Shown here: in pieces, positions 1,566 through 35,585 of the stretch | How positions within the stretch are numbered: the first letter of the stretch is position 1 | Layout: each line of letters starts with the position of its first letter | Origin: an uncultured Thermoplasmata archaeon | GTDB lineage: Archaea > Thermoplasmatota > Thermoplasmata > UBA10834 | Direction of reading: 5' to 3' | Assembly: GCA_964644565.1 (NCBI GenBank) | Contig: CAZXWO010000002.1 | Span: forward strand, 35,244 to 99,243 | DNA: 64,000 bases | Notes under the pieces: model-generated | Database searches by the model: none | The model's input: the letters and a program-made list of their open reading frames with translations, nothing else | What the model was told of the DNA's origin: nothing | Made by a program: the position numbers and the translations under genes

Positions 1566-3737
1566 CTACCTGAACTCCCTCAGGGACCTCTGCCCGTCCT
1601 CGGTGGCCGCGGGCATCGTCGGGTCCGCCTGGCCGAGCTGGTCCTTCAGGGACCTGGCGACAGACTCCCCAATCGTCGGTATCTGCTTAAGCCTGTCGTA
1701 GCTCGTGTTCCTCAGGTCCTCCAGGCCCTTGATGCCCCTCGAATACAGTGCGCGCGCGCGCACCCTGCCCAGCCCCCTGAGCTTGACCAGCTCCAGCAGC
1801 TCGGGCCTGATGCCGTACCTCACCCTGGCGACCGCCTCCGCGCACTCACCGACGGCGTCCCTGTTGAACAGCTCCGACAGCCTCGCGGATGCGTGCAGGA
1901 GCCATTCGGCGAGCTCGACCTTGTTCCGTATGTCCCCGGGGCCGATCCCGAAGGAGTCGGCTATCTCGTTCTCGTGGGCCTCGGACATCCAGTCGTCGAT
2001 CATCTTCGCCGTCTTCAGGGTGGACAGGTACAGCTCGTACTCCTCGAGGTCCCTCGGCGGCTCGACCAGGAGCCCGTCCTTGACCTCGTCGAGGTACTCC
2101 TCGACCCACTCGTAGTCGCTGCGCCTGAGGTACATGAGCGGCATGTCTGGGACCGTGCACACGGCGTGGACGAGCCCGAACTGCTTCCCCGGGGAGAACC
2201 TCCTCAGGGCGTCCCTGATCCTGACGGCGGAGAGCGGGTCTATGTAAAGGTCGCTGACCCTCCTCCCGAACCCCGTCGCGGCGAGGGCCTCCCCCTCCGT
2301 CACCATCTCCTCCCTCTGCAGGAACTCGACGATGGACTCGATGATGTCGCCGAGGTACTGCGCGTCCGTCTGGTGCGCCAGGAATGTCTTCTGGAAGAAC
2401 CCCTTGAGCGCGTCGAGCGAGCCGGCGTCCTTGGTCGCGACCAGGGCGAGCACGTGGGACCTCATCGCAGGCTCCGTCCCCAGCTTGGACCGGATGCTCT
2501 CGTTCTCGCCGAGCAGGTAAGCCTCCATCAGGAGGCTCCTCTCCTCGTCGTCCCTCGCGATTAGGATCGCCTCGCCGTACGGGTCGAACCTGGGCCTCCC
2601 CGCCCTGCCGCACATCTGCTTGACCTCAAGGACAGGGATCGAGGTGAAGCCCATCTCGGAGTCGTACCTCCGGACGTCCCTGACGATGACCGTCCTCGCG
2701 GGCAGGTTGATCCCCGCTGCCAGCGTCGGGGTCGCGACGATGCAGCCCAGCTGGCCGGACCTGAAGCTCCCCTCGACCGTCCTCCTCTGGGCGCCCGTTA
2801 GGCCCGCGTGGTGGAAGGCGCACCCGCTCCGGATGCACTTGCCGAGCCTCGCGCCCATGGTCGTGGGCTCGTCCTGCTCCCCCACGAGCCTGTCCGCGGT
2901 CCTCGCCAGCGCGTCCAGCCTGTCGGGTATCATCCTCTTCACCAGGGGGCCGAGTGCCGAGGCCTGCGACTCGCTCGACTTGCGCGAGTTGACGAAGACG
3001 AGGCACTGCCCCCCAGAGGCGATGGTGTCCCTGACTATCGCGTTGACGGGGTTGTCGTCGGCCCCGAGCCTCTTCCTGGAGTTGTCTGTGAAGAACACCT
3101 CCCCTCCGGAGTAGACGCCCTCCTTCAGCGGGACCGGCCTCCAGTCGCTCGTCACGAGGTCCGCGTCGAGCCATTCCGCGAGCTCGCGCGCGTTGCCGAT
3201 GGTGGCCGAGAGGGCGATGAGCTGCGCGCCAGGGTTGAAAGTCCTGAACTTGACCAGGGTGACCTCGAGGGTGGGCCCGCGGCCCGGGTCGTTCAGCAGG
3301 TGGACCTCGTCGGCGACGACCACCGAGAGCTGGTCCAGCCACTTGGTCCTGTGCCTCAGGAGCGAGTCGGCCTTCTCGGACGTCGAGACCACGATGTCGT
3401 ACCTGTGGAGCTTCGCGTCCACCTCGTCGAAGTCGCCGGTCGACTCGGCGACCTTGATGCCCATGTCGGCGAACTTGGACAGGTCCTCGTACTTCTCGGA
3501 GGCGAGAGCCTTCAGGGGGACGATGTAGAGCGCCTTGCCCCCCCTTAGCACCGCCTGCAGCATCGCGAGGTACGCGACCAGGCTCTTGCCGGAGGCGGTC
3601 GGGATCGCCAGTACGACGTTCCTCCCCTCCATCACGGGGCGCAGGGCCTCGGCCTGCGGAGGGTACAGCTCCTCGATGCCGTCCTCCCTGAGCTTCCTGA
3701 CGACCCTCGGGTCCAGTCCCACATCCTCGACCTTCAT
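1566..3737 (-). CDS. hel308: ATP-dependent DNA helicase Hel308 (Ski2-like)
   Basis: DEAD/DEAH helicase motifs (AIPTASGKS Walker A, DEVH), RecA-like domains, WH and C-terminal HhH domain. The ORF in the track begins at a GTG at 3800 that abuts a TATA-like box, so the true start is more likely MKVEDVGLD (ATG at 3737). Confidence 0.85.
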   Translation of the reverse strand: MKVEDVGLDPRVVRKLREDGIEELYPPQAEALRPVMEGRNVVLAIPTASGKSLVAYLAMLQAVLRGGKALYIVPLKALASEKYEDLSKFADMGIKVAESTGDFDEVDAKLHRYDIVVSTSEKADSLLRHRTKWLDQLSVVVADEVHLLNDPGRGPTLEVTLVKFRTFNPGAQLIALSATIGNARELAEWLDADLVTSDWRPVPLKEGVYSGGEVFFTDNSRKRLGADDNPVNAIVRDTIASGGQCLVFVNSRKSSESQASALGPLVKRMIPDRLDALARTADRLVGEQDEPTTMGARLGKCIRSGCAFHHAGLTGAQRRTVEGSFRSGQLGCIVATPTLAAGINLPARTVIVRDVRRYDSEMGFTSIPVLEVKQMCGRAGRPRFDPYGEAILIARDDEERSLLMEAYLLGENESIRSKLGTEPAMRSHVLALVATKDAGSLDALKGFFQKTFLAHQTDAQYLGDIIESIVEFLQREEMVTEGEALAATGFGRRVSDLYIDPLSAVRIRDALRRFSPGKQFGLVHAVCTVPDMPLMYLRRSDYEWVEEYLDEVKDGLLVEPPRDLEEYELYLSTLKTAKMIDDWMSEAHENEIADSFGIGPGDIRNKVELAEWLLHASARLSELFNRDAVGECAEAVARVRYGIRPELLELVKLRGLGRVRARALYSRGIKGLEDLRNTSYDRLKQIPTIGESVARSLKDQLGQADPTMPAATEDGQRSLREFR

Positions 3738-3800
3738 CCGAAGCACCTGTCTCCCTGTCCCGGCGGCGGCTCCGCGCGCCCGCCTACGAAATATGTGCAC

Positions 3801-3950
3801 TTATAAGGCCACGGGGCCCTGCCGTAAGTGCTCGGCCGGCCTCCCCCCGGGGACCGTTCCGCACACTGGCTGTGTTAACTGTATATGGTCTCACGGCGCA
3901 ACGCTTATCTAGCACAGGCTTAATAACTTTGACTAATACTGGTGTAACTG
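3801..3950. promoter_or_regulatory. Divergent promoter region between hel308 and lonB (TATA-like cttataag for hel308; ttaataac about 27-34 nt upstream of the lonB ATG, consistent with a leaderless transcript)
   Basis: AT-rich patches in an otherwise GC-rich genome, with archaeal TATA-like hexamers at the expected distance from the start codons. Confidence 0.4.
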
Positions 3951-12903: not shown

Positions 12904-13881
12904 TCATCTGAGGTATATCAGCCGCCCCAGCCTGCCGTCCCAGATCCAGTCGTCCTCGGTGACCGCGTCCCTGCGCCTGGCGATCATGTACTCGATCTTG
13001 GCGTCCGTGTCGTCGGCCTCGTGGACCGCGAGGGCCTCGGGCGTCATCGGGTCCACGGGCGAGCCCCACTCCCTCTTGCCGTGGTGCGCCAGGAGGATGT
13101 GCCTCAGCTTCATGGCGAGGTCCGGGGGGAAGCCCTCGACCCCCTCCATGTGCTCGACCACCTCCTCGTCGCCTATGGCGATGTGCCCTATGAGGTTCCC
13201 CTCGGGCGAGTGGTTTATGTGGGTCGTGACACGGAAGCTCCTGACCTTACCGACGTCGTGCAGGAGGGCGCCCGTCAGAACCAGCTCCCTGTCCAGCCCG
13301 GGGTGCTGCCTCACTATGTGGAGCGCCGTGTCGGCCACGTTCAGGGTGTGCTGCAGCAGGCCCCCGAGCGCGGCGGAGTGCAGCTGGATGGAGGCGGGGG
13401 CAGCGCAGAAGGCGTCCATGAACACCTGGTCCCTGAAGAACGACTCGAGCAGGGCGCGCATGTGCGGCTCCTCCACCTGGCCAAGGAGCGAGAGCAGCCT
13501 CTCGCGCATCTCGGGGACGCCGTCGACCGTCGGCACCAGCTCGGAGACGTCGTACTCGCCCTCCGCGAGCCTGGCCACGGAGCCGTTGTTCTTCCTGCTG
13601 ACGGACACCTCGACCTGGTTCCTGTAGTCGGATGCCTCGCCCCTCACATGGACGACGTCGTCCGCCTCGAAGGACGAGTACAGCCTCTGGACGGCCTCCC
13701 GGTCCTCGTCCCCCCAGTACTTCACGGTGAGCTGTCCGCTCTTGTCCGCGGCCCTGAACTCGAACATGTGGCCGTACCTGTACTCGACCACGGGCTTCTT
13801 GTAGGCGACCGAGAAGTAGCTGTCCACCCTGTCGCCCGGCCTCAGGTCCTTGGCCGTCTGCTTCCCCTTGGTGGCGGTCAT
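12904..13881 (-). CDS. OB-fold nucleic-acid-binding plus HD-domain phosphohydrolase (YhaM-like 3'-5' exoribonuclease family)
   Basis: N-terminal OB-fold (DLRPGDRVDSYFSVAYKK..) followed by HD motif HSAALGGLLQHTLNV...LLHDVGK. The start was set at MTATKGK because the first 82 codons of the track ORF are Arg/Gly-rich junk. Confidence 0.7.
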   Translation of the reverse strand: MTATKGKQTAKDLRPGDRVDSYFSVAYKKPVVEYRYGHMFEFRAADKSGQLTVKYWGDEDREAVQRLYSSFEADDVVHVRGEASDYRNQVEVSVSRKNNGSVARLAEGEYDVSELVPTVDGVPEMRERLLSLLGQVEEPHMRALLESFFRDQVFMDAFCAAPASIQLHSAALGGLLQHTLNVADTALHIVRQHPGLDRELVLTGALLHDVGKVRSFRVTTHINHSPEGNLIGHIAIGDEEVVEHMEGVEGFPPDLAMKLRHILLAHHGKREWGSPVDPMTPEALAVHEADDTDAKIEYMIARRRDAVTEDDWIWDGRLGRLIYLR

Positions 13882-14178
13882 GTCACTCTGCACCTTCCTG
13901 AGCGGGGTTATGGGGATGGGGGTGTAAACACTTTTCACGATGGGTGGACCGAAGGCCCTGCCCCTTAGCTGGCAGACCGCGGTATGCTCAATCGCCGTCC
14001 CCGCGTCCGAGGAGGCGCCCCTCCAAGGAGGCCTCGGGCCACTCATGCCCCTCCGAGAGCGCACCCCCTGCAACTCCCTTTGCGCTACGTGTACCCTACG
14101 TTCCTGATAAAAGAAATGGAACCGCACAGGCCCGCACCCCGGGGCCGTGTGCGCGTTTGCGTTTCCCTTTTCTTGTTC

Positions 14179-17100
14179 CTACCAGCACTTGGAGTAGCCG
14201 CAGGTCCTGCACACGACGCACCCCTCGACGTACTCCACCATGCTCCCGCACTCCGGACACTCGGGGCACACGTCCCCCTTGTCCACGTGGTTCTGCTTCT
14301 CGACCGGGGCTGCGGCGACCCCGGCATCGACGGCGCTCTCGACCTTGGAGGTCTCGAAGTCCTTGACGAACCTCTCGAGCGCCTTGGCGACCGCGTCGCT
14401 GCAGGAGAGCACCATGCCCCCCGGCTGCCAGAGCGGGGAGGGGCACCGTATGCCCCTCAGCTGTTTCGCGATCGACTCGGGGTCTATGCCCGACCGCAGG
14501 GCGAGCGATATCAGCCTCCCCACGGCCTCCGACTGGGACGCGGTGCACCCTCCCGACTTCCCCATCTGGGTGAACACCTCGCACAGGCCCCTCTCGTCCA
14601 CGTTTATAGTCACATACAGGTGGCCGCAGCCCGTCTCCATCCTCTGGGTGGAGCCGCGCGTCACCATGGGCCTCTTCCGGGGGACCCTGGAGTCCGCCTC
14701 CGTCCCGGCCTCCTCCGGCGTCTTCTCCTTGTCGGCCCCGACGCTGAGGACCTGGTCCTCGCGGCTGCCGTACCTGTACACGGTCACGCCCTTGCAGCCG
14801 AGCTTGTAGGCGAGCATGTAGACGTCCTCGACGTCCTTCGGGGTCGCCTCGCTCGGGAAGTTGACGGTCTTGGAGACGGCATTGTCCGTGTGCTCCTGGA
14901 AGGCCGCCTGCATCTTGATGTGCCACTCGGGGGAGATGTCGAGGGCCGTGACGAATACCCTCTTGACGTCCTCGGGCACGCCTCGGACGTCCTTGACCGT
15001 CCCCTTGGCGGCGATCTCCTTCATGAGCTCGTCGGAGTGGAACCCCTTGGCCTTCGAGACCGCGTCGAATATCGGGTTGACCTCCGGGAGTATGTCCTTG
15101 TCCATGACATTGCGGACGTATGCGACGGCGAATATGGGCTCGACCCCGCTGGACGCCCCCGAGATTATGCTTATGGTCCCGGTCGGCGCGATGGTGGTGA
15201 CAGTCGCGTTCCTGAGCGCCCCGAACCTGCCCTTGAGGGTGCTGTCCTCGAAGTTGGGGAAGCTTCCCCGCTCCTTGGCGAGGGCGACGGAGGCCTTGTG
15301 CCCCTCCTCGTCCACGAAAGCCATTATCTTCCTGCCGATCTCGAGGGCGTCGTCGCTGTCGTATGGGGTGCCCATTGTCAGCAGCATGTCGGCGAAGCCC
15401 ATCACGCCCAGCCCGATCTTCCTGTTCGAGCGCGTCATGTCCGCGATCTGGGGCAGCGGGTACTTGTTGACGTCTATCACGTTGTCGAGGAACCGGACCG
15501 ACCAGTGGACCGTGTCCCTGAGCTTGTCCCAGTCGACCGAGTACTTCCCGGACTCGTAGGAGAGCATGTGGGCCAGGTTGATGGAACCGAGGTTGCACGA
15601 CTCGTAGGGGAGCAGGGGCTGCTCGCCGCACGGGTTGGTGCTCTCGATCTCCCCGACCTTCGGGGTGGGGTTGTCCCGGTTTATCCGGTCTATGAACACG
15701 ATCCCGGGCTCCCCGTTCCGCCAGGCCATGTTCACGATCATGTCGAAGACCTTGCGGGAGTCCAGCTTCGAGGCGGGCTGACCCTTCCTGGGGTTGACCA
15801 GGTCGTAGTCCGTGCCCTTCTCCACCGCCTCCATGAACTTGTCCGTCAGGGCGACCGAGATGTTGAAGTTGGTCAGCCTGGAGCTGTCCTTCTTGGCCGT
15901 GATGAACGACATTATGTCGGGGTGGTCGACGCGGAGTATGCCCATGTTGGCCCCCCGCCTCGTGCCTCCCTGCTTTATCGTCTCGGTGGCGGCGTTGAAC
16001 ACCTCCATGAAGGAGATGGGTCCGCTTGAGACGCCGGCGGTGCTCTTGACGGAGTCGTTCGCGGGCCTCAGCCTCGAGAAGCTGAACCCCGTCCCCCCGC
16101 CGCTGTTGTGCGACACGAAACCATTGGCGAGGTACGCGTGGCTGTTGGGGACGGTCAGGTCCACCACCTCCCTCCTCCCCGAGGGGAGGACGGCCTTGAC
16201 CTTCACCAGGAAGTGCCCTTCGTCGTCGGGCTCGGCGTGGTAGCGCCCCGCACCCTCGGCCTCGGCGACCATCCGGGGGGCCTCTGCCGCCCTCAGCCTC
16301 TCCGAGAGCACCTTCGAGTTGAAACCGACCTTCTCCTTGAAGCACTCGAACCCGGACGCAGTGCAGACTGTGAGCTTGGAGCCTTCCCTGACAGTCGGTA
16401 TGCCGACGTAGAACATCATCGTCTGCAGGTCCCTGGCGAGTCTCTCGGACGGCAGGTCCGCGGAGACCATGCCACCGGGGGAGACCCACCCGTGGTCGTC
16501 GAAGGTCCTCCTGAGGAACCCGCACAGGCCGGGCTCGTCCGCCCTTATGACCCTCTCGTCGACCCCCTGGGAGAACTCGATGGCCTCGTGGGGCACCTCT
16601 GCTTCGACCCCTCCCAGCCAGCCTCCGAGCTTCATGACCGCGGTGGAGCCCTCCCTGAGCTGCCCTATCTTCCTCCAGTCGAGGTCACCGCTGTCGGTCA
16701 TGACCAGCACCCTGTGCAGCGCGGTCCCGGTGATGGAGTACCCCTCCTCGGTCTCGACAGTGAAGACCTCTTGCGTCCCGTTCTCGTGCTTGTCCACGAC
16801 GGTCTCCATCCCCTCGTGCGTCTCGATCCACCCGCCGGCCGTGACGTCACCGAGGGTCATGCAACCCACGTCCGTCATCACCAGCGTCTCCGGGACGAGG
16901 CACTTGTGGATCAGGGCGGTGTACTTGACCGCGTCGAATATCTGTTCCATGGAGTCGCCTATCGGCAGGACGAAGCACGCTGATAGCTGGCCGAGCTCCC
17001 TGCCCGCGTTCATGAGGGTGGGGCTGTTCGGCATGAAATCGAGCCTGGCCATCATCTCGTAGAACTTCACGGCCGCCCTTTCGACCTCGGTCTCGCCGCC

Positions 17101-17328
17101 TCCGTAGTTGGCCTCGGCGGACGCGATGGCCCTGGCGACCCTCTCGAAGAGCTGGCGGGGCGTCTCGACGGGCTTCCCGTCGTCGTCCTTCCTGAGATAT
17201 CGGCGCTCAAGCACGGTTCTGGCATTGGAGCTGATCTGCGGTTCCAGGTCCCATCCTGAATTCGTCTTGAACTGTCTGTGCCCTGGGGCGACAGAGTCCC
17301 CTTGCCGATAGTTGGGTGTGCTTGACAT
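14179..17328 (-). CDS. nrdJ: Adenosylcobalamin-dependent (class II) ribonucleoside-triphosphate/diphosphate reductase, intein-containing, with C-terminal zinc ribbon
   Basis: RNR class II signature regions (NAGRELGQLSACFVLPI..., ...SGGGTGFSFSRLRP, CGEQPLLPYESCNLGSINL) and a C-terminal CPECPECG...CVVCRTCG zinc ribbon. 1049 aa, about 266 aa longer than expected because of an intein. Confidence 0.9.
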   Translation of the reverse strand: MSSTPNYRQGDSVAPGHRQFKTNSGWDLEPQISSNARTVLERRYLRKDDDGKPVETPRQLFERVARAIASAEANYGGGETEVERAAVKFYEMMARLDFMPNSPTLMNAGRELGQLSACFVLPIGDSMEQIFDAVKYTALIHKCLVPETLVMTDVGCMTLGDVTAGGWIETHEGMETVVDKHENGTQEVFTVETEEGYSITGTALHRVLVMTDSGDLDWRKIGQLREGSTAVMKLGGWLGGVEAEVPHEAIEFSQGVDERVIRADEPGLCGFLRRTFDDHGWVSPGGMVSADLPSERLARDLQTMMFYVGIPTVREGSKLTVCTASGFECFKEKVGFNSKVLSERLRAAEAPRMVAEAEGAGRYHAEPDDEGHFLVKVKAVLPSGRREVVDLTVPNSHAYLANGFVSHNSGGGTGFSFSRLRPANDSVKSTAGVSSGPISFMEVFNAATETIKQGGTRRGANMGILRVDHPDIMSFITAKKDSSRLTNFNISVALTDKFMEAVEKGTDYDLVNPRKGQPASKLDSRKVFDMIVNMAWRNGEPGIVFIDRINRDNPTPKVGEIESTNPCGEQPLLPYESCNLGSINLAHMLSYESGKYSVDWDKLRDTVHWSVRFLDNVIDVNKYPLPQIADMTRSNRKIGLGVMGFADMLLTMGTPYDSDDALEIGRKIMAFVDEEGHKASVALAKERGSFPNFEDSTLKGRFGALRNATVTTIAPTGTISIISGASSGVEPIFAVAYVRNVMDKDILPEVNPIFDAVSKAKGFHSDELMKEIAAKGTVKDVRGVPEDVKRVFVTALDISPEWHIKMQAAFQEHTDNAVSKTVNFPSEATPKDVEDVYMLAYKLGCKGVTVYRYGSREDQVLSVGADKEKTPEEAGTEADSRVPRKRPMVTRGSTQRMETGCGHLYVTINVDERGLCEVFTQMGKSGGCTASQSEAVGRLISLALRSGIDPESIAKQLRGIRCPSPLWQPGGMVLSCSDAVAKALERFVKDFETSKVESAVDAGVAAAPVEKQNHVDKGDVCPECPECGSMVEYVEGCVVCRTCGYSKCW
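16105..16902 (-). other. Mini-intein (266 aa) inserted in RNR between ALIHK and SGGGTGFSF
   Basis: Insertion begins with Cys (CLVPETLVMTDVGCMTL, block A), has a TxxH block B (GTALHRVLV), ends ...GFVSHN (block G His-Asn), and is followed by Ser+1. The flanking exteins re-join to the conserved RNR motif ALIHK-SGGGTGF. Confidence 0.75.
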
Positions 17329-17787
17329 TTCTCCCCCTCTGGCGTACCTGTGCTTCCCTTACGGGTACGGTATGGGTCGCACGGGTTGATGGCTCCCCCC
17401 TCTGCTCGCGAAGATGAGGTGAGTCCCCATCCCCCACTTCATTGTGTAAACAGAGGCGAAAAGCTTTGCGGCTGCGTGCAGAGGGACGAATGAGCGGGTA
17501 TGATTTAAAGAAGTTTTCCGACAGGACTTGGTAACAAATCCCGCCGTGGTTCTGCGATGTCAGGACATATTATTATCTACATTGTTATCAGGTCGTTTAC
17601 CTATTGCCGTTGCCAGCCGTGCATGATTGTGCTGTGAACTGCGGTTTCCACTGGAGTTCGGCAGATAACGGATGTACACTTACGTGAATCGGATGTGCTG
17701 CCTATATCCTTCTCGGGCCCGTCGGTGCGGCACACAATTTGTATAAGAGTCCGTCATTAACCGCATGTCAGGAGTCAGGGTGATGCC

Positions 17788-18033
17788 GTGAAGGTCAGAG
17801 TCAAGCTCTTCTCCGCGTTCAGGGAAGTGGTCGGCACCAAGGAGGAGGATCTGGAGCTGCCCGACGGGACCACCGTCAGCGGCCTCCTGGACGACTATGT
17901 CCGCAGGTTCCCAGCTCTGGAACGCTACAGGGACCACATAATCCTCTCCGTGAACCGTGAGTACGGCGCGCCCTCGAGGGTCCTCAGGGCCGGGGACGAG
18001 GTGTCGTTCCTGCCGCCCGTCAGCGGTGGTTGA
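17788..18033 (+). CDS. MoaD/ThiS-family ubiquitin-like small protein ending in Gly-Gly (SAMP-like)
   Basis: 81 aa, GTG start after ggagtcaggg, C-terminal ...PPVSGG diglycine, beta-grasp-like pattern. No adjacent MoaE/ThiF. Confidence 0.65.
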   Translation: MKVRVKLFSAFREVVGTKEEDLELPDGTTVSGLLDDYVRRFPALERYRDHIILSVNREYGAPSRVLRAGDEVSFLPPVSGG

Positions 18034-18142
18034 ACGGCCCGGTGTCATGCAGAACGTGCTTATACTGGCCTGTGCATAAAGCCCCTTCGCGGCGTTACGG
18101 GGGCAGGTTGGCCCTGCCCGACTCGAATCCGACGGTGGTCCG

Positions 18143-19873
18143 ATGACTTCTCGAATACCTGCGAAATCCATGGTGGTTGTAGCCGCGTTCTTGGTGTCCG
18201 CGCTCCTCGTCCCTTCGGGGCCCGGCGAACGGACGGAGCCCCAGCTCGTCTCGACCACGTTGGCAGGCCCGCCCGTCGACTACGTCTACAGGAACTACTC
18301 TGAGATCAGGGACATCCTCCTGCAGACCGTCGCGGAGTATCCGGAGATAGCGGCGCTCCACGACATCGGGGACAGTTGGGAGAAGACCGCCGGCCTGGCG
18401 GACCGTGACATACTCGCGATCAAGATATCGGACAACGTGGACACCGAGGAGGACGAACCGGAGTTCCTCCTTCTCGCCCTGCATCACGCGCGCGAGTGGC
18501 CGACCTCGGAGACGGCGTTGAACGTCATCAAGAACATCACCGAGGGCTATGGCACCGACCCGAGGATAAGCTGGCTCGTCGACAACCGGGAGATATGGGT
18601 CGTGCCGGTCGTGAACCCGGACGGGCTCGACTTCGCCCTCACCGCCGACGACATGTGGAGGAAGAACAGGCGGGACAACATGGACGGGACCTTCGGCGTG
18701 GACCTCAACAGGAACTACAACGGGTCGGAGAACGGGGACCCCCTGGGGGCTTGGGGAGGCGCCGGCACGTCCGACCTCAACTACTCCGATGTGTACTGCG
18801 GCGAGGCGCCGTTCTCGGAGCCCGAGACGCAGGCCGTCCGGGACCTCTCCCGCGCGCACGACTTCCAGATCGCCTTCGACTTCCACACCTACGATGACTC
18901 GGTGATGTGGCCGTGGGGCTACACGGCGAATCTGACCGCGGACGACGAGCACTTCGTGGACATAGGCCATCAGCTCGCCTCCCTGAACGGCTATGCGGCC
19001 GCGCAGTCCGTGGACCTGTACGCCACGACCGGCGACTCTCTCGACTGGCTCTACGGAAGCCTGGGCATATTCGCGTTCCTCTTCGAGATGGGGGCGACCG
19101 AGTTCCACCCGGACTTCGAGGAGGACGTCCTGGAGATCGTCTACGAGAACTACGCGCCCACTCTCCTGGGCATAGAGCTGTGCGGCGACCGTTACCAGTC
19201 GCCATTCGAGATATCGCACGCGCCCCTGGGCGACTCGCCTTTCTCGGCGGCGGGCCACACCGTCTCCGCCGACATCACCGCGGGCAGGGGCGTGGATACG
19301 TCCAGCCCCAGGGTCGTCTACAGTGTTGACGGCGGTGCGTGGCAGGAGTCCCCCATGACCGGGGGTTCCTCCGGCGACACGTACGAGGGCACCATACCCT
19401 CGCAGGTGGCCGGGTCCGTCGTCGAGTACTACATATTCGCGGAGGACCTGGGCGCCGTGGAGCTCACCAGCCCGAGGTATGCCCCCTACGAGGTCTACTC
19501 GTTCTCGGTGACCGAGTCGCCGAACGACCCGCCCGTCGCGGATGCCGGCGCCGACGCCAGCACCCCGCTCGGAGGGGAGGTCGTGTTCGACTCATCCGGC
19601 TCTTCCGACGACGCGGGGATCGTGAGCTACACATGGACCTTCCTCTACAACGGTTCGGAGGTGTCGCTCGACGGCCCGTCCCCATCCTTCCGGTTCTGGA
19701 CGGAGGGGCTCTACACGGTCACGCTGAACGTCACGGACGCGCAGGGGGAGTACGACACCGACGTGATGGTCGTCTTCGTGGAGGGCACGGCGATACCCGA
19801 GTTCCCGACGGTACTGGTCCCGGTCGCGGCGCTGCTGGCGCTGTTCCTCGTCATTCGAGCGAGACGACCCTGA
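18143..19873 (+). CDS. Secreted M14-family zinc carboxypeptidase with PKD domain and PEF-CTERM archaeal sorting signal
   Basis: Signal peptide/TM at the N-terminus; M14 motifs LHHAREWPT (HxxE), NPDG, DLNRNY, FHTY; PKD-like segment (YTWTF...YTVTLNVTDAQGEYDT); C-terminus IPEFPTVLVPVAALLALFLVIRARRP (PEF motif + TM + basic tail). Confidence 0.8.
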   Translation: MTSRIPAKSMVVVAAFLVSALLVPSGPGERTEPQLVSTTLAGPPVDYVYRNYSEIRDILLQTVAEYPEIAALHDIGDSWEKTAGLADRDILAIKISDNVDTEEDEPEFLLLALHHAREWPTSETALNVIKNITEGYGTDPRISWLVDNREIWVVPVVNPDGLDFALTADDMWRKNRRDNMDGTFGVDLNRNYNGSENGDPLGAWGGAGTSDLNYSDVYCGEAPFSEPETQAVRDLSRAHDFQIAFDFHTYDDSVMWPWGYTANLTADDEHFVDIGHQLASLNGYAAAQSVDLYATTGDSLDWLYGSLGIFAFLFEMGATEFHPDFEEDVLEIVYENYAPTLLGIELCGDRYQSPFEISHAPLGDSPFSAAGHTVSADITAGRGVDTSSPRVVYSVDGGAWQESPMTGGSSGDTYEGTIPSQVAGSVVEYYIFAEDLGAVELTSPRYAPYEVYSFSVTESPNDPPVADAGADASTPLGGEVVFDSSGSSDDAGIVSYTWTFLYNGSEVSLDGPSPSFRFWTEGLYTVTLNVTDAQGEYDTDVMVVFVEGTAIPEFPTVLVPVAALLALFLVIRARRP

Positions 19874-20279
19874 GGCTCCTCGCCCTCGGGCAGACGACCT
19901 CACCGGGGTCCACCGAGAGGACCTTGTACTTCATCCCGTCCGAGGCGCCCGGCGGGCGGCAGAGCCTATAGTTGGGACACCCGACCGCGTCGCAGTCGCC
20001 GTCCTCCCACGTGATCATGGACCCCTCCAGTGCGGACCTTGTGGGCAGGGCGGCCCTCGTGGGCACGCGCTCCACCTCGACGACACGGACCCCGCCCTCG
20101 TGCACCTTGCACTCGTGGTGGACCTCCCTGACGTCCCTGACCCTGTACCACCTGTTCTCCTCGAGGTGGAAGCAGACGTTCCTGACCTTGCACTCCCTGC
20201 ACTCAGCCAGGGGTCCTCCGAAGACGAACTCGAACCCTTTCCTGCACTGAAGCTCTCCGACGACCGTCACCAGTACCAT
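19851..20279 (-). CDS. UPF0179-family archaeal conserved protein
   Basis: MVLVTVVGELQCRKGFEFVFGGPLAECRECKV.. matches the conserved N-terminus of UPF0179 proteins; cysteine-rich. Overlaps the carboxypeptidase 3' end by 23 nt (convergent). Confidence 0.55.
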   Translation of the reverse strand: MVLVTVVGELQCRKGFEFVFGGPLAECRECKVRNVCFHLEENRWYRVRDVREVHHECKVHEGGVRVVEVERVPTRAALPTRSALEGSMITWEDGDCDAVGCPNYRLCRPPGASDGMKYKVLSVDPGEVVCPRARSLRVVSLE

Positions 20280-35503: not shown

Positions 35504-35510
35504 GGGTCGT

Positions 35511-35585
35511 GGGGCCGGGACCGGGAATCGAACCCGGGTCAAGGGATCCACAGTCCCCAAGGATACCACTACCCCACCCCGGCCA
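35511..35585 (-). tRNA. tRNA-His (anticodon GUG) with encoded G-1 and 3' CCA
   Basis: Reverse complement folds as G-1 + acceptor GCCGGGG/TCCCGGC (one G-U), anticodon stem GGGGA/TCCCT with loop CUGUGGA (GUG), T arm CCGGG-TTCGATT-CCCGG, discriminator C, CCA encoded. Confidence 0.8.

What the first reader, a model, noticed from the sequence alone, without database searches (positions are those of the whole stretch)
16105..16902. 266-aa intein in the class II ribonucleotide reductase between ALIHK and SGGGTGF
The intein has clear Hint blocks (Cys1, TxxH, terminal HN, +1 Ser) and sits at a highly conserved RNR active-site region, a known intein hotspot. Its size (266 aa) is between a mini-intein and a full HEN-containing intein. 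The segment LCGFLRRTFDDHGW could be a degenerate LAGLIDADG remnant, which suggests a decaying homing endonuclease.
Basis: partly seen in the sequence, partly recalled or inferred. Interest (0 to 1): 0.55.

Follow-up and report, generated by a model that had tools for sequence, protein, structure and literature searches.

The report
Shrunken intein in archaeal ribonucleotide reductase
The finding is a real self-splicing protein insert (intein) in the B12-dependent ribonucleotide reductase of an uncultured Thermoplasmata archaeon; it has lost half of its DNA-cutting domain, is inherited vertically, and is an ordinary example of a well-known kind of element.

Summary
Confirmed. Window 16105-16902 on the minus strand encodes a 266-aa class 1 intein. 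It lies inside a 1049-aa NrdJ gene (14179-17328, minus strand), between ...ALIHK and SGGGTGF.... All splicing residues are present. With the intein removed, the protein aligns without a gap to intein-free NrdJ.

The segment LCGFLRRTFDDHGW is the second LAGLIDADG motif (block E) of a homing endonuclease. Inteins of 420-466 aa with both motifs occupy the same site in other bacteria and archaea. The window form lacks the first half-domain, a hairpin and part of a helical region. The catalytic acidic position is His or Arg, and never Asp or Glu, in 37 species.

The same 266/267-aa form is present in 36 GTDB species-representative MAGs labelled Thermoplasmata, Thermoplasmatota, Methanobacteriota or Euryarchaeota (53-81% identity, one 1-aa indel). 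Its divergence tracks that of the host gene (Mantel r = 0.81). It is under purifying selection throughout, with dN/dS of 0.17 in the remnant and 0.09-0.10 in the splicing domain. So it has decayed but is no longer decaying.

An AlphaFold model (pLDDT 86) shows one alpha-beta-beta-alpha-beta-beta-alpha half-domain. One intein-free allele sits inside the clade.

Verdict: a new member of a known kind, of low to moderate interest.

The parts
14179..17328 (-). NrdJ (adenosylcobalamin-dependent, class II ribonucleotide reductase) precursor gene: 1049 codons plus stop
   Evidence: ORF list. NCBIfam NF006417 scores 1225.7 bits against a cutoff of 961, and TIGR02504 NrdJ_Z also matches. Pfam finds Ribonuc_red_lgN, Ribonuc_red_lgC, TSCPD and Intein_splicing.
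16903..17328 (-). N-extein, residues 1-142, ending ...AVKYTALIHK
   Evidence: It aligns to T. maritima NrdJ up to K158, 24 residues after the LSACFV cysteine.
16105..16902 (-). Intein, 266 aa (precursor residues 143-408)
16609..16902 (-). N-terminal part of the Hint splicing domain (intein residues 1-98). It holds Cys1 (16900-16902) and block B T60-A-L-H63 (16714-16725).
   Evidence: Translation. C1, T60 and H63 are invariant in 37 species. dN/dS is 0.10. The AF2 model is all-beta here, with pLDDT 83-94.
16537..16608 (-). Linker (intein residues 99-122). It includes a possible vestige of the first LAGLIDADG helix (VPHEAIEFS, aligned to LTPELAELIG).
   Evidence: Alignments. It is the least conserved part, with mean pairwise identity 0.37. 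dN/dS is 0.20. pLDDT is 63-76.
16327..16536 (-). Retained second LAGLIDADG half-domain (intein residues 123-192). The degenerate block E motif LCGFLRRTFDDHGW is at 16486-16527.
   Evidence: hhalign to full-size same-site inteins gives probability 100% and E = 1.3e-67. The only PDB hit of the remnant profile is PI-PfuI 220-284. The AF2 secondary structure is H123-137, E138-140, E146-149, H153-165, E170-173, E176-179, H182-192, with pLDDT 90-96. The catalytic position is R17/H16/N2/S1/K1 in 37 sequences. dN/dS is 0.17.
16222..16326 (-). Helical tail (intein residues 193-227), a shortened version of the helical region that follows the endonuclease core in full-size relatives
   Evidence: hhalign shows roughly 60-70 template columns missing here. 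AF2 predicts helices 197-205 and 208-217. dN/dS is 0.19.
16105..16221 (-). C-terminal part of the Hint domain (intein residues 228-266): block F (VVDLTV, Asp248) and block G, ending H265-N266 (16105-16110)
   Evidence: D248, H265 and N266 are invariant. NCBIfam intein_Cterm matches. dN/dS is 0.09.
14182..16104 (-). C-extein, residues 409-1049, starting with the +1 nucleophile Ser (16102-16104) in [14 protein letters not shown]
   Evidence: Ser at +1 is also the native residue in intein-free alleles.

Best explanation
This is a class 1 intein that has become fixed in its host lineage. It is translated as part of the NrdJ precursor and removes itself by the standard four-step protein-splicing pathway. 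Cys1 performs an N-S acyl shift, assisted by block B Thr60/His63. The +1 Ser then attacks that thioester. Asn266 cyclises, assisted by His265 and block F Asp248. A final O-N shift leaves ...[12 protein letters not shown]... joined by a normal peptide bond, giving active ribonucleotide reductase.

The intein descends from a roughly 430-aa intein carrying a LAGLIDADG homing endonuclease at the same NrdJ site. In the ancestor of a Thermoplasmata clade it lost the first LAGLIDADG half-domain, a hairpin and part of a helical region. The catalytic acid of the surviving motif was also replaced. It can therefore no longer cut DNA or home, and it is inherited vertically with the host gene.

The surviving half-domain is kept by purifying selection. 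The most likely reason is that it has become part of the intein's folding unit, so damaging it would impair splicing of an essential enzyme.

Shown here: the anatomy, the homology, the deletion map, the loss of the catalytic residue, the conservation, the co-divergence with the host and the existence of intein-free alleles. Inferred: that splicing actually occurs, that the endonuclease is inactive, and the reason for the constraint.
For: Junctions and catalytic residues are present and invariant in 37 species. Intein models match. The extein aligns without a gap to 1xje and to intein-free Thermoplasmata NrdJ.

Inteins of 420-466 aa occupy the identical site (IH[KQ]|C...HN|SGGG) in P0004, P0009-P0012, P0014, P0029, P0019, P0035 and P0085; the sequences inspected (P0004, P0009-P0014, P0021) carry both LAGLIDADG motifs. 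Related loci come from Rokubacteria/Methylomirabilota, Actinomycetota, Chloroflexota, Aenigmatarchaeota and Methanomicrobia.

hhalign of short against full-size inteins gives probability 100%, E = 1.3e-67 and 40% identity. All 267 columns align, with three deletions. P0004's second Pfam LAGLIDADG_3 hit covers the region that aligns to the remnant. Motif position 8 is never Asp or Glu in 37 sequences.

The AF2 model has pLDDT 86.3 and pTM 0.86, with one alpha-beta-beta-alpha-beta-beta-alpha unit. The best query-normalised structural match is PI-PfuI, TMq 0.63.

Thirty-six GTDB species representatives carry the 266/267-aa form in frame. There is one 1-aa indel in the whole family. Pooled dN/dS is 0.10 / 0.20 / 0.17 / 0.19 / 0.09 along the intein and 0.05 in the extein flanks. 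Intein and extein distances correlate, with Mantel r = 0.81 and 0 of 2000 permutations reaching that value.

Published framework: mini-inteins and degenerated endonuclease domains are held by selection on splicing, and Hint and endonuclease domains can become mutually dependent (PMC4071816, PMC8966425).
Against: No experiment shows splicing or the lack of cleavage.

The remnant alone does not reach Pfam's LAGLIDADG threshold: the window sequence gives no hit, and 12 of 37 relatives give only weak hits. Its only PDB sequence hit has E = 0.9. The homology therefore rests on the full-size same-site relatives.

The last nine residues of the AF2 model, and residues 107-109, have pLDDT below 50. The model was built from only nine sequences.

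dN/dS comes from a simple Nei-Gojobori count on ten chosen pairs in a high-GC genome, not from a codon model on a tree. The reason for the constraint on the half-domain is inferred and not tested.
Confidence: 0.85

Rival explanations
1. The retained half-domain has been taken over for a new role beyond supporting the fold. For example, two half-domains from the two protomers of the NrdJ dimer could pair through their LAGLIDADG helices, as in I-CreI. That pairing might help precursor assembly, bind DNA, or make splicing conditional, for instance redox-sensitive through the clade-invariant Cys14 and Cys127.
For: The half-domain is under purifying selection (dN/dS 0.17) and has 12 invariant columns. 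Cys14 and Cys127 are invariant in 37 species, whereas position 14 is Leu or Ile in full-size relatives. A lone LAGLIDADG half-domain normally has an exposed helix-packing face (established knowledge of I-CreI-type homodimers). Other inteins of about 250-290 aa at other sites keep the same half.
Against: Selection on splicing of an essential enzyme is enough to explain the constraint (PMC4071816, PMC8966425). Nothing here shows dimerisation, DNA binding or conditional splicing. The constraint on the half-domain is weaker than on the Hint parts (0.17 against 0.09-0.10).
Confidence: 0.1
2. The intein still carries an active endonuclease of the single-motif type, which works as a homodimer of two intein copies and still drives homing.
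For: Single-motif LAGLIDADG enzymes such as I-CreI are active as homodimers (established knowledge). The half-domain fold is predicted with confidence. An acidic residue (E17/D15 of 37) is common one position before the canonical catalytic position. An intein-free target allele exists within the clade.
Against: The canonical metal-binding position is Arg, His, Asn, Ser or Lys in all 37 sequences, never Asp or Glu. Intein and extein distances co-vary (Mantel r = 0.81), as expected for vertical descent. The short form was found only in loci labelled Thermoplasmata, Thermoplasmatota, Methanobacteriota or Euryarchaeota. No Pfam LAGLIDADG hit reaches threshold.
Confidence: 0.03
3. The 266 residues are not an intein. 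Either they are a native insertion domain of this NrdJ lineage, or the gene is a decaying pseudogene whose insert no longer splices.
For: The insert is present in every member found of a whole clade, which is also what a lineage-specific domain would look like.
Against: All intein blocks and nucleophiles are present and invariant. The insert interrupts a strand that is continuous in the solved NrdJ structure. Intein-free alleles exist both beside and inside the clade. The ORF is intact in 36 other genomes, with dN/dS of 0.05 in the exteins and 0.14 over the intein.
Confidence: 0.02

Closest known systems
Full-size LAGLIDADG inteins at the same NrdJ site (for example P0004 from a Candidatus Methylomirabilia MAG, named by NCBI 'LAGLIDADG family homing endonuclease', and P0009-P0014)
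   Same: The insertion point is identical (IH[KQ]|C...HN|SGGG[TVM]G). The Hint blocks are homologous. Block E and the following beta-beta-alpha-beta-beta-alpha are homologous. Profile identity is 40%, with E = 1.3e-67.
   Different: They are 420-466 aa. They have both LAGLIDADG motifs (LAELIGLYxGDGS and AFLRGLFxADGC) with the acidic catalytic residues, plus a longer helical region. The window intein lacks about 165 of those residues, and its surviving motif has His at the catalytic position.
PI-PfuI (Pfu RIR1-1 intein of Pyrococcus furiosus ribonucleotide reductase, PDB 1dq3)
   Same: It is an archaeal RNR intein with a Hint domain and a LAGLIDADG endonuclease. It is the best query-normalised structural match (TMq 0.63). 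It is also the only solved structure hit by the remnant profile, at its block E (the whole-intein profile gives E = 8.6e-7).
   Different: It is 454 aa, with two motifs and an extra DNA-binding (stirrup) domain, and it is an active endonuclease (knowledge from the literature, not tested here). Whether it sits at the same insertion site was not established. RNRs of similar size among the hits carry their first intein at ...QGG|C...HN|SRRGA, about 45 residues downstream.
Mxe GyrA mini-intein (PDB 1am2)
   Same: It is the best sequence match among solved structures (E = 1.2e-7, or 1.8e-14 with the profile). It is a natural intein that lost its endonuclease. It has Cys1 and a ...GFVSHN C-terminus.
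   Different: It is 198 aa, with only a short linker where the endonuclease was. Its host is gyrase A and it is bacterial.
PhoVMA intein (PDB 7qst), a degenerated endonuclease-bearing intein
   Same: It is an archaeal intein whose LAGLIDADG domain has lost its catalytic aspartates and part of block E, yet it is retained. It is discussed in the literature as a stage of the homing cycle and as a case of Hint-endonuclease interdependence (PMC8966425). It is among the top structural hits.
   Different: It keeps both halves of the endonuclease fold, whereas the window intein keeps only the second half. Its host is V-ATPase.
I-CreI-type single-motif LAGLIDADG homing endonucleases
   Same: There is one LAGLIDADG helix and one alpha-beta-beta-alpha-beta-beta-alpha unit per chain.
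   Different: They are free-standing or intron-encoded, work as homodimers and have an acidic catalytic residue. In the window intein the residue is His/Arg and the unit is embedded in a Hint domain. No dimerisation has been shown.

Membership tests
Class 1 intein (Hint-domain protein-splicing element) | In-frame insertion in a conserved host protein that is absent from close homologues, with a gapless extein once it is removed | tested here: met
   The extein aligns across the junction to 1xje. Intein-free NrdJ fragments P0160-P0162 read ...[12 protein letters not shown]....
Class 1 intein (Hint-domain protein-splicing element) | N-terminal Cys/Ser nucleophile and block B TxxH | tested here: met
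   Cys1 and T60-A-L-H63 are present and invariant in 37 species.
Class 1 intein (Hint-domain protein-splicing element) | Blocks F and G with penultimate His, terminal Asn, and a Cys/Ser/Thr at +1 | tested here: met
   The sequence is VVDLTV...ANGFVSHN|S. D248, H265 and N266 are invariant, and +1 Ser is present in all 36 loci. NCBIfam intein_Cterm scores 25.5 bits against a cutoff of 15.6.
Class 1 intein (Hint-domain protein-splicing element) | Match to curated intein or Hint models, and a Hint fold | tested here: met
   Pfam PF14890 scores 41.8 bits against a cutoff of 35.8. Foldseek gives probability 1.00 to many solved inteins and to the Hedgehog Hint domain.
Class 1 intein (Hint-domain protein-splicing element) | Autocatalytic splicing | not testable with these tools
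   This needs expression of the precursor. Indirect support: the ORFs are intact and both intein and extein are under purifying selection.
Active LAGLIDADG homing endonuclease (intein-borne, pseudo-dimeric) | Two LAGLIDADG motifs (blocks C and E), each heading an alpha-beta-beta-alpha-beta-beta-alpha half | tested here: not met
   Only block E and one half-domain are present. The block C half is deleted relative to same-site relatives.
Active LAGLIDADG homing endonuclease (intein-borne, pseudo-dimeric) | Acidic metal-binding residue at motif position 8 (the residue before the final Gly) | tested here: not met
   It is His137 in the window. Across 37 species it is R17/H16/N2/S1/K1. Full-size relatives have Asp.
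Active LAGLIDADG homing endonuclease (intein-borne, pseudo-dimeric) | Match to curated LAGLIDADG models | tested here: not met
   The window remnant gives no Pfam LAGLIDADG hit. Twelve of 37 relatives give sub-threshold hits, the best with E = 0.0014.
Active LAGLIDADG homing endonuclease (intein-borne, pseudo-dimeric) | Site-specific cleavage of the intein-free allele | not testable with these tools
   This needs a cleavage assay on the L053-type junction.
Mini-intein (endonuclease-free) | Hint domain with only a short linker in place of the endonuclease (typically about 130-200 aa in total) | tested here: not met
   There are 129 residues (99-227) between the Hint halves. They form a confidently predicted folded domain.
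Allelic family of the NrdJ IHK|SGGG insertion site | Same insertion point, plus sequence homology throughout the intein | tested here: met
   Junction table. hhalign gives probability 100% over all columns. The InBase letter for this site was not determined.

The most novel reading that the evidence does not exclude
The C-terminal half of a LAGLIDADG endonuclease may be a recurrent, selectively retained module of inteins of about 250-290 aa. It is seen here in a whole Thermoplasmata clade, and in unrelated inteins at other sites (P0024, P0057, P0144, the second intein of P0009, P0115). It could have acquired a role of its own. For example, it might pair across the NrdJ dimer through the exposed LAGLIDADG helix, or gate splicing of ribonucleotide reductase through the clade-invariant cysteines. 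That would make it more than a passive leftover.
Probability: 0.1. Interest if true: 0.55.

Novelty: new member of a known kind. Interest (0 to 1): 0.3.

Why it matters
Inteins in ribonucleotide reductase are among the most common inteins known: 211 bacterial and 43 archaeal cases in one survey (PMC4760082). Degeneration of their endonucleases is textbook homing-cycle biology, so the element itself is not surprising.

Its modest value is as a clean natural example of an intermediate state. Exactly half of the endonuclease is gone. The rest has been frozen at constant length across at least 37 species, under measurable purifying selection. Full-size alleles at the same site and an intein-free allele inside the clade are both available for comparison. 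That combination is a convenient system for testing whether endonuclease remnants are kept because the splicing domain has come to depend on them.

For annotation, it means the 1049-aa ORF should be read as a 783-aa enzyme plus an intein.

Tried and rejected
- AlphaFold on the single sequence gave an unusable model (pLDDT 35.8).
- The search for homologous proteins with the intein and with the 37-sequence profile returned only 7-8 short fragments and none of the 1050-aa proteins. The second of these searches was largely wasted, partly because I set the cutoff at 1e-10.
- Pfam on the isolated remnant gave no LAGLIDADG hit for the window sequence.
- The remnant profile against PDB sequences gave only a marginal hit (E = 0.9).
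- I tried to find the InBase letter (RIR1-a, -b...) of the IHK|SGGG site in papers. The names exist (rir1-b, g, k, l, m in PMC4071816), but no text held here maps them to sequence.
- I first thought the NCBIfam PRK08332 coordinates might show that PI-PfuI shares this site. The numbers were not consistent, and I dropped the claim.
- A search for a second intein in the window with the two intein profiles found none.
- Rfam and tRNA scans found nothing relevant to the finding.
- The long ORFs on the plus strand over the same region, such as 16108-16983, were set aside as by-products of 64% G+C.
- A literature search for inteins with a single LAGLIDADG motif found no description of this architecture in the library held here. 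That is not evidence that none exists.
Full report
**1. The observation**

The region lies inside a 1049-codon ORF on the minus strand, window 14179-17328. Translating 16105-16902 on the minus strand gives 266 residues, CLVPETLVMTDVGC...HAYLANGFVSHN. These are residues 143-408 of the ORF, flanked by ...AVKYTALIHK and [10 protein letters not shown]....

The host is an adenosylcobalamin-dependent ribonucleotide reductase (NrdJ):
- NCBIfam NF006417 scores 1225.7 bits against a cutoff of 961.
- Pfam finds Ribonuc_red_lgN, Ribonuc_red_lgC and TSCPD.

The insert matches several intein models:
- Pfam Intein_splicing above its gathering score (E = 1.3e-10).
- The NCBIfam intein N- and C-terminal models.
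- Solved inteins, best Mxe GyrA.

G+C of the intein (0.66) is close to that of the gene (0.64) and the window (0.64). Nothing therefore points to recent arrival.

**2. It is an intein and not a native domain**

After the 266 residues are removed, the 783-aa product aligns across the junction to T. maritima NrdJ (1xje) with no gap. ...YALITKVGGGVGSNFSELRP aligns with ...[20 protein letters not shown]. This places the insertion between the equivalents of K158 and V159, 24 residues after the LSACFV cysteine.

A search with the spliced N-terminal 323 residues found intein-free NrdJ fragments that cover the junction in one piece:
- P0160: 80% identity, 100% coverage.
- P0161 and P0162: named Thermoplasmata by NCBI, 74-77% identity.

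**3. What the middle of the intein is**

The few close relatives in the protein database included a 432-aa intein at the same site in a Methylomirabilia MAG. This is P0004, named 'LAGLIDADG family homing endonuclease', and it reads ...SHK|CLVGETLV...GFVAHN|SGG. The exhaustive representative search gave 1317 hits. Among the best 150, the same junction (IH[KQ]|C ... HN|SGGG) is occupied by inteins of 420-466 aa in P0009-P0012, P0014, P0029, P0019, P0035 and P0085.

The sequences inspected (P0004, P0009-P0014, P0021) carry both LAGLIDADG motifs: block C (LAELIGLYxGDGS) and block E (AFLRGLFxADGC).

I compared a profile of the short family (A2, 37 sequences) with a profile of the full-size same-site inteins (A4). 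The result was probability 100%, E = 1.3e-67 and 40% identity, with all 267 short-form columns aligned. The short form differs by three deletions:
- About 125 template columns holding block C and the whole first half-domain.
- An 8-9-residue hairpin.
- Roughly 60-70 columns of the helical region after the endonuclease core.

- P0004's second Pfam LAGLIDADG_3 hit covers the aligned region.
- A profile of the remnant alone finds just one solved structure, PI-PfuI, at its block E (220-284). The hit is weak (E = 0.9).
- Twelve of 37 remnants give sub-threshold LAGLIDADG_3 hits, and the window's own remnant gives none.

The canonical metal-binding position (the residue before the final Gly) is His137 in the window. 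Across 37 species it is Arg 17, His 16, Asn 2, Ser 1 and Lys 1. It is never Asp or Glu.

**4. Structure**

The single-sequence AlphaFold model was useless (pLDDT 35.8). With a 9-row alignment the model reached pLDDT 86.3 and pTM 0.86.
- Residues 1-98 and 228-250 are all-beta, as expected for a Hint domain.
- Residues 123-192 form helix-strand-strand-helix-strand-strand-helix with pLDDT 90-96. This is the topology of one LAGLIDADG half-domain.
- Two further helices follow.
- The last nine residues and residues 107-109 have low confidence.

Foldseek against the PDB returns inteins throughout. The highest query-normalised TM-score (0.63) is to PI-PfuI.

**5. Distribution and evolution**

A scan of one genome per GTDB species found 49 loci. 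Thirty-six of them (L004-L039) carry a 266- or 267-aa intein that is 53-81% identical to the window's. Their record titles read Thermoplasmata, Thermoplasmatota, Methanobacteriota or Euryarchaeota archaeon. All are in frame, and all have IHK|C...HN|SGGGTGF junctions. Most of the remaining loci (L041-L052) are full-size relatives from Rokubacteria/Methylomirabilota, Actinomycetota, Chloroflexota, Hakubella, Aenigmatarchaeota and Methanomicrobia; L040 is a further Thermoplasmata locus with only a fragmentary match.

The 37 short inteins differ by a single one-residue indel. Mean pairwise identity by region is:

| Region | Mean pairwise identity |
|---|---|
| Hint parts | 0.68 |
| Remnant | 0.59 |
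| Linker | 0.37 |
| Tail | 0.43 |

Invariant residues include C1, T60, H63, D248, H265 and N266.

Nei-Gojobori counts pooled over ten close, largely independent pairs give the following:

| Region | dN/dS |
|---|---|
| Hint-N | 0.10 |
| Linker | 0.20 |
| LAGLIDADG half | 0.17 |
| Helical tail | 0.19 |
| Hint-C | 0.09 |
| Extein flanks | 0.05 |

Pooled dS over the whole intein was about 0.47.

Intein and extein pairwise distances correlate, with Mantel r = 0.81 and 0 of 2000 permutations as high. On a neighbour-joining tree of the extein the intein-bearing sequences form one clade, and the intein-free P0161/P0162 are its sister group. The intein-free P0160 falls inside the clade next to L021, at 91% extein identity. 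The tree has no bootstrap support values.

P0160's contig (L053) has the same gene order as the window: UPF0179, M14 peptidase, ThiS, NrdJ. Its junction at the DNA level is clean...CACAAG|AGCGGC....

The simplest history has four steps:
- One invasion of the site.
- Truncation and inactivation of the endonuclease before the clade diversified.
- Vertical descent afterwards.
- At least one later loss or replacement by an empty allele.

**6. Mechanism**

With all class 1 residues in place, the expected chemistry is the standard pathway:
- N-S acyl shift at Cys1.
- Trans-esterification by the +1 Ser.
- Cyclisation of Asn266.
- O-N shift.

This follows from established knowledge of inteins and was not tested here. 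Endonuclease activity is very unlikely, because half of the fold and the catalytic acid are missing.

The remnant is clearly constrained. The published explanation for such cases is that splicing of an essential host protein selects against anything that disturbs the intein fold, and that Hint and endonuclease domains can become interdependent (PMC4071816, PMC8966425). That is my preferred reading, but it is an inference.

**7. Comparison with what is known, and novelty**

RNR is one of the proteins most often invaded by inteins (PMC4760082). The homing cycle, from invasion through fixation, degeneration and deletion to loss, is well described. This element fits that scheme at the 'degenerated and partly deleted, fixed' stage.

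What is slightly unusual is the clean retention of exactly the second half-domain at constant length over a whole clade. Several unrelated inteins of 243-292 aa among the hits also align end to end with this one and keep a single block-E-like motif. I found no description of that architecture in the papers searchable here. That is weak evidence for novelty.

I file it as a new member of a known kind. Interest is about 0.3. About 10% of the probability goes to the more novel idea that the half-domain has a function of its own.

**8. Limits**
- There is no biochemical evidence.
- The InBase name of the site is not determined.
- The dN/dS values and the tree come from simple methods.
- Whether every member of the clade carries the intein is unknown, because the genome scan looked for the intein itself.

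Noticed in passing
Proteins: P0024 173-440, P0057 925-1186, P0144 375-638 / 648-915 / 926-1168, P0009 788-1046, P0115 88-345, P0049 102-353, P0050 64-308: Several inteins of 243-292 aa, at other insertion sites and in other host proteins, align end to end with the window intein. They also keep only one block-E-like LAGLIDADG motif, mostly without the catalytic acid (FDSKG, FDKGK, FDAKA, FTDCG, YDSHG). Retention of the C-terminal half of the endonuclease may be a recurrent outcome of degeneration.
   Followed up: partly
L053 3530-5401 (JGI 3300012931, Ga0153915_10030463): This is an intein-free NrdJ allele with the same synteny as the window, and it sits inside the intein-bearing clade. Its reading frame is interrupted by one in-frame stop (KYP*QQIEDITR, where the window has KYPLPQIADMTR). 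This is either a sequencing error or a pseudogene.
   Followed up: partly
L015 (OY970070.1, complete-chromosome Thermoplasmata MAG), extein flanks of the intein at 3001-3801: The extein flanks used for the tree contain a stop codon, so the locus was skipped. This may be a long-read frameshift or error.
   Followed up: no
window 16861-16863 (intein Cys14) and 16522-16524 (intein Cys127), minus strand: Besides Cys1, two cysteines are invariant in all 37 short inteins. Position 14 is Leu or Ile in the full-size same-site relatives. No structural or redox role was tested.
   Followed up: no
window 12904-20279: The gene neighbourhood is conserved. It runs OB-fold + HD-domain protein (12904-14127, -), NrdJ (14179-17328, -), ThiS/MoaD-like 81 aa (17788-18033, +), M14 carboxypeptidase with PKD domain (18143-19873, +) and UPF0179 (19851-20279, -). 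The part from UPF0179 to NrdJ recurs, in whole or in part, in L001 and L053.
   Followed up: partly
window 14191-14259 and 14368-14646, minus strand: The NrdJ C-terminus carries a TSCPD domain and a terminal four-cysteine zinc-ribbon-like motif (CPECPECG...CVVCRTCG). The Zn_ribbon_RPB9 hit is only sub-threshold.
   Followed up: no
window 35510-35583, minus strand: A tRNA-His (GTG) gene is the only RNA gene that Rfam and ARAGORN found in the 64-kb window.
   Followed up: no
P0001 (L001 1395-2648), P0002 (L002 429-1490), P0003 (L003 879-1928): Three metagenomic relatives have aberrant C-termini that begin inside the intein. P0001 runs to within a few bases of its contig end in the adaptor-like peptide CLLYTSPSPRD, and P0002 and P0003 switch to unrelated sequence. 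These look like assembly artefacts.
   Followed up: no
window 16108-16983 (+), 16469-17062 (+) and other long ORFs overlapping NrdJ: Many long ORFs overlap the real gene in other frames and on the other strand. They have no family matches and are what a 64% G+C sequence would produce by chance.
   Followed up: partly
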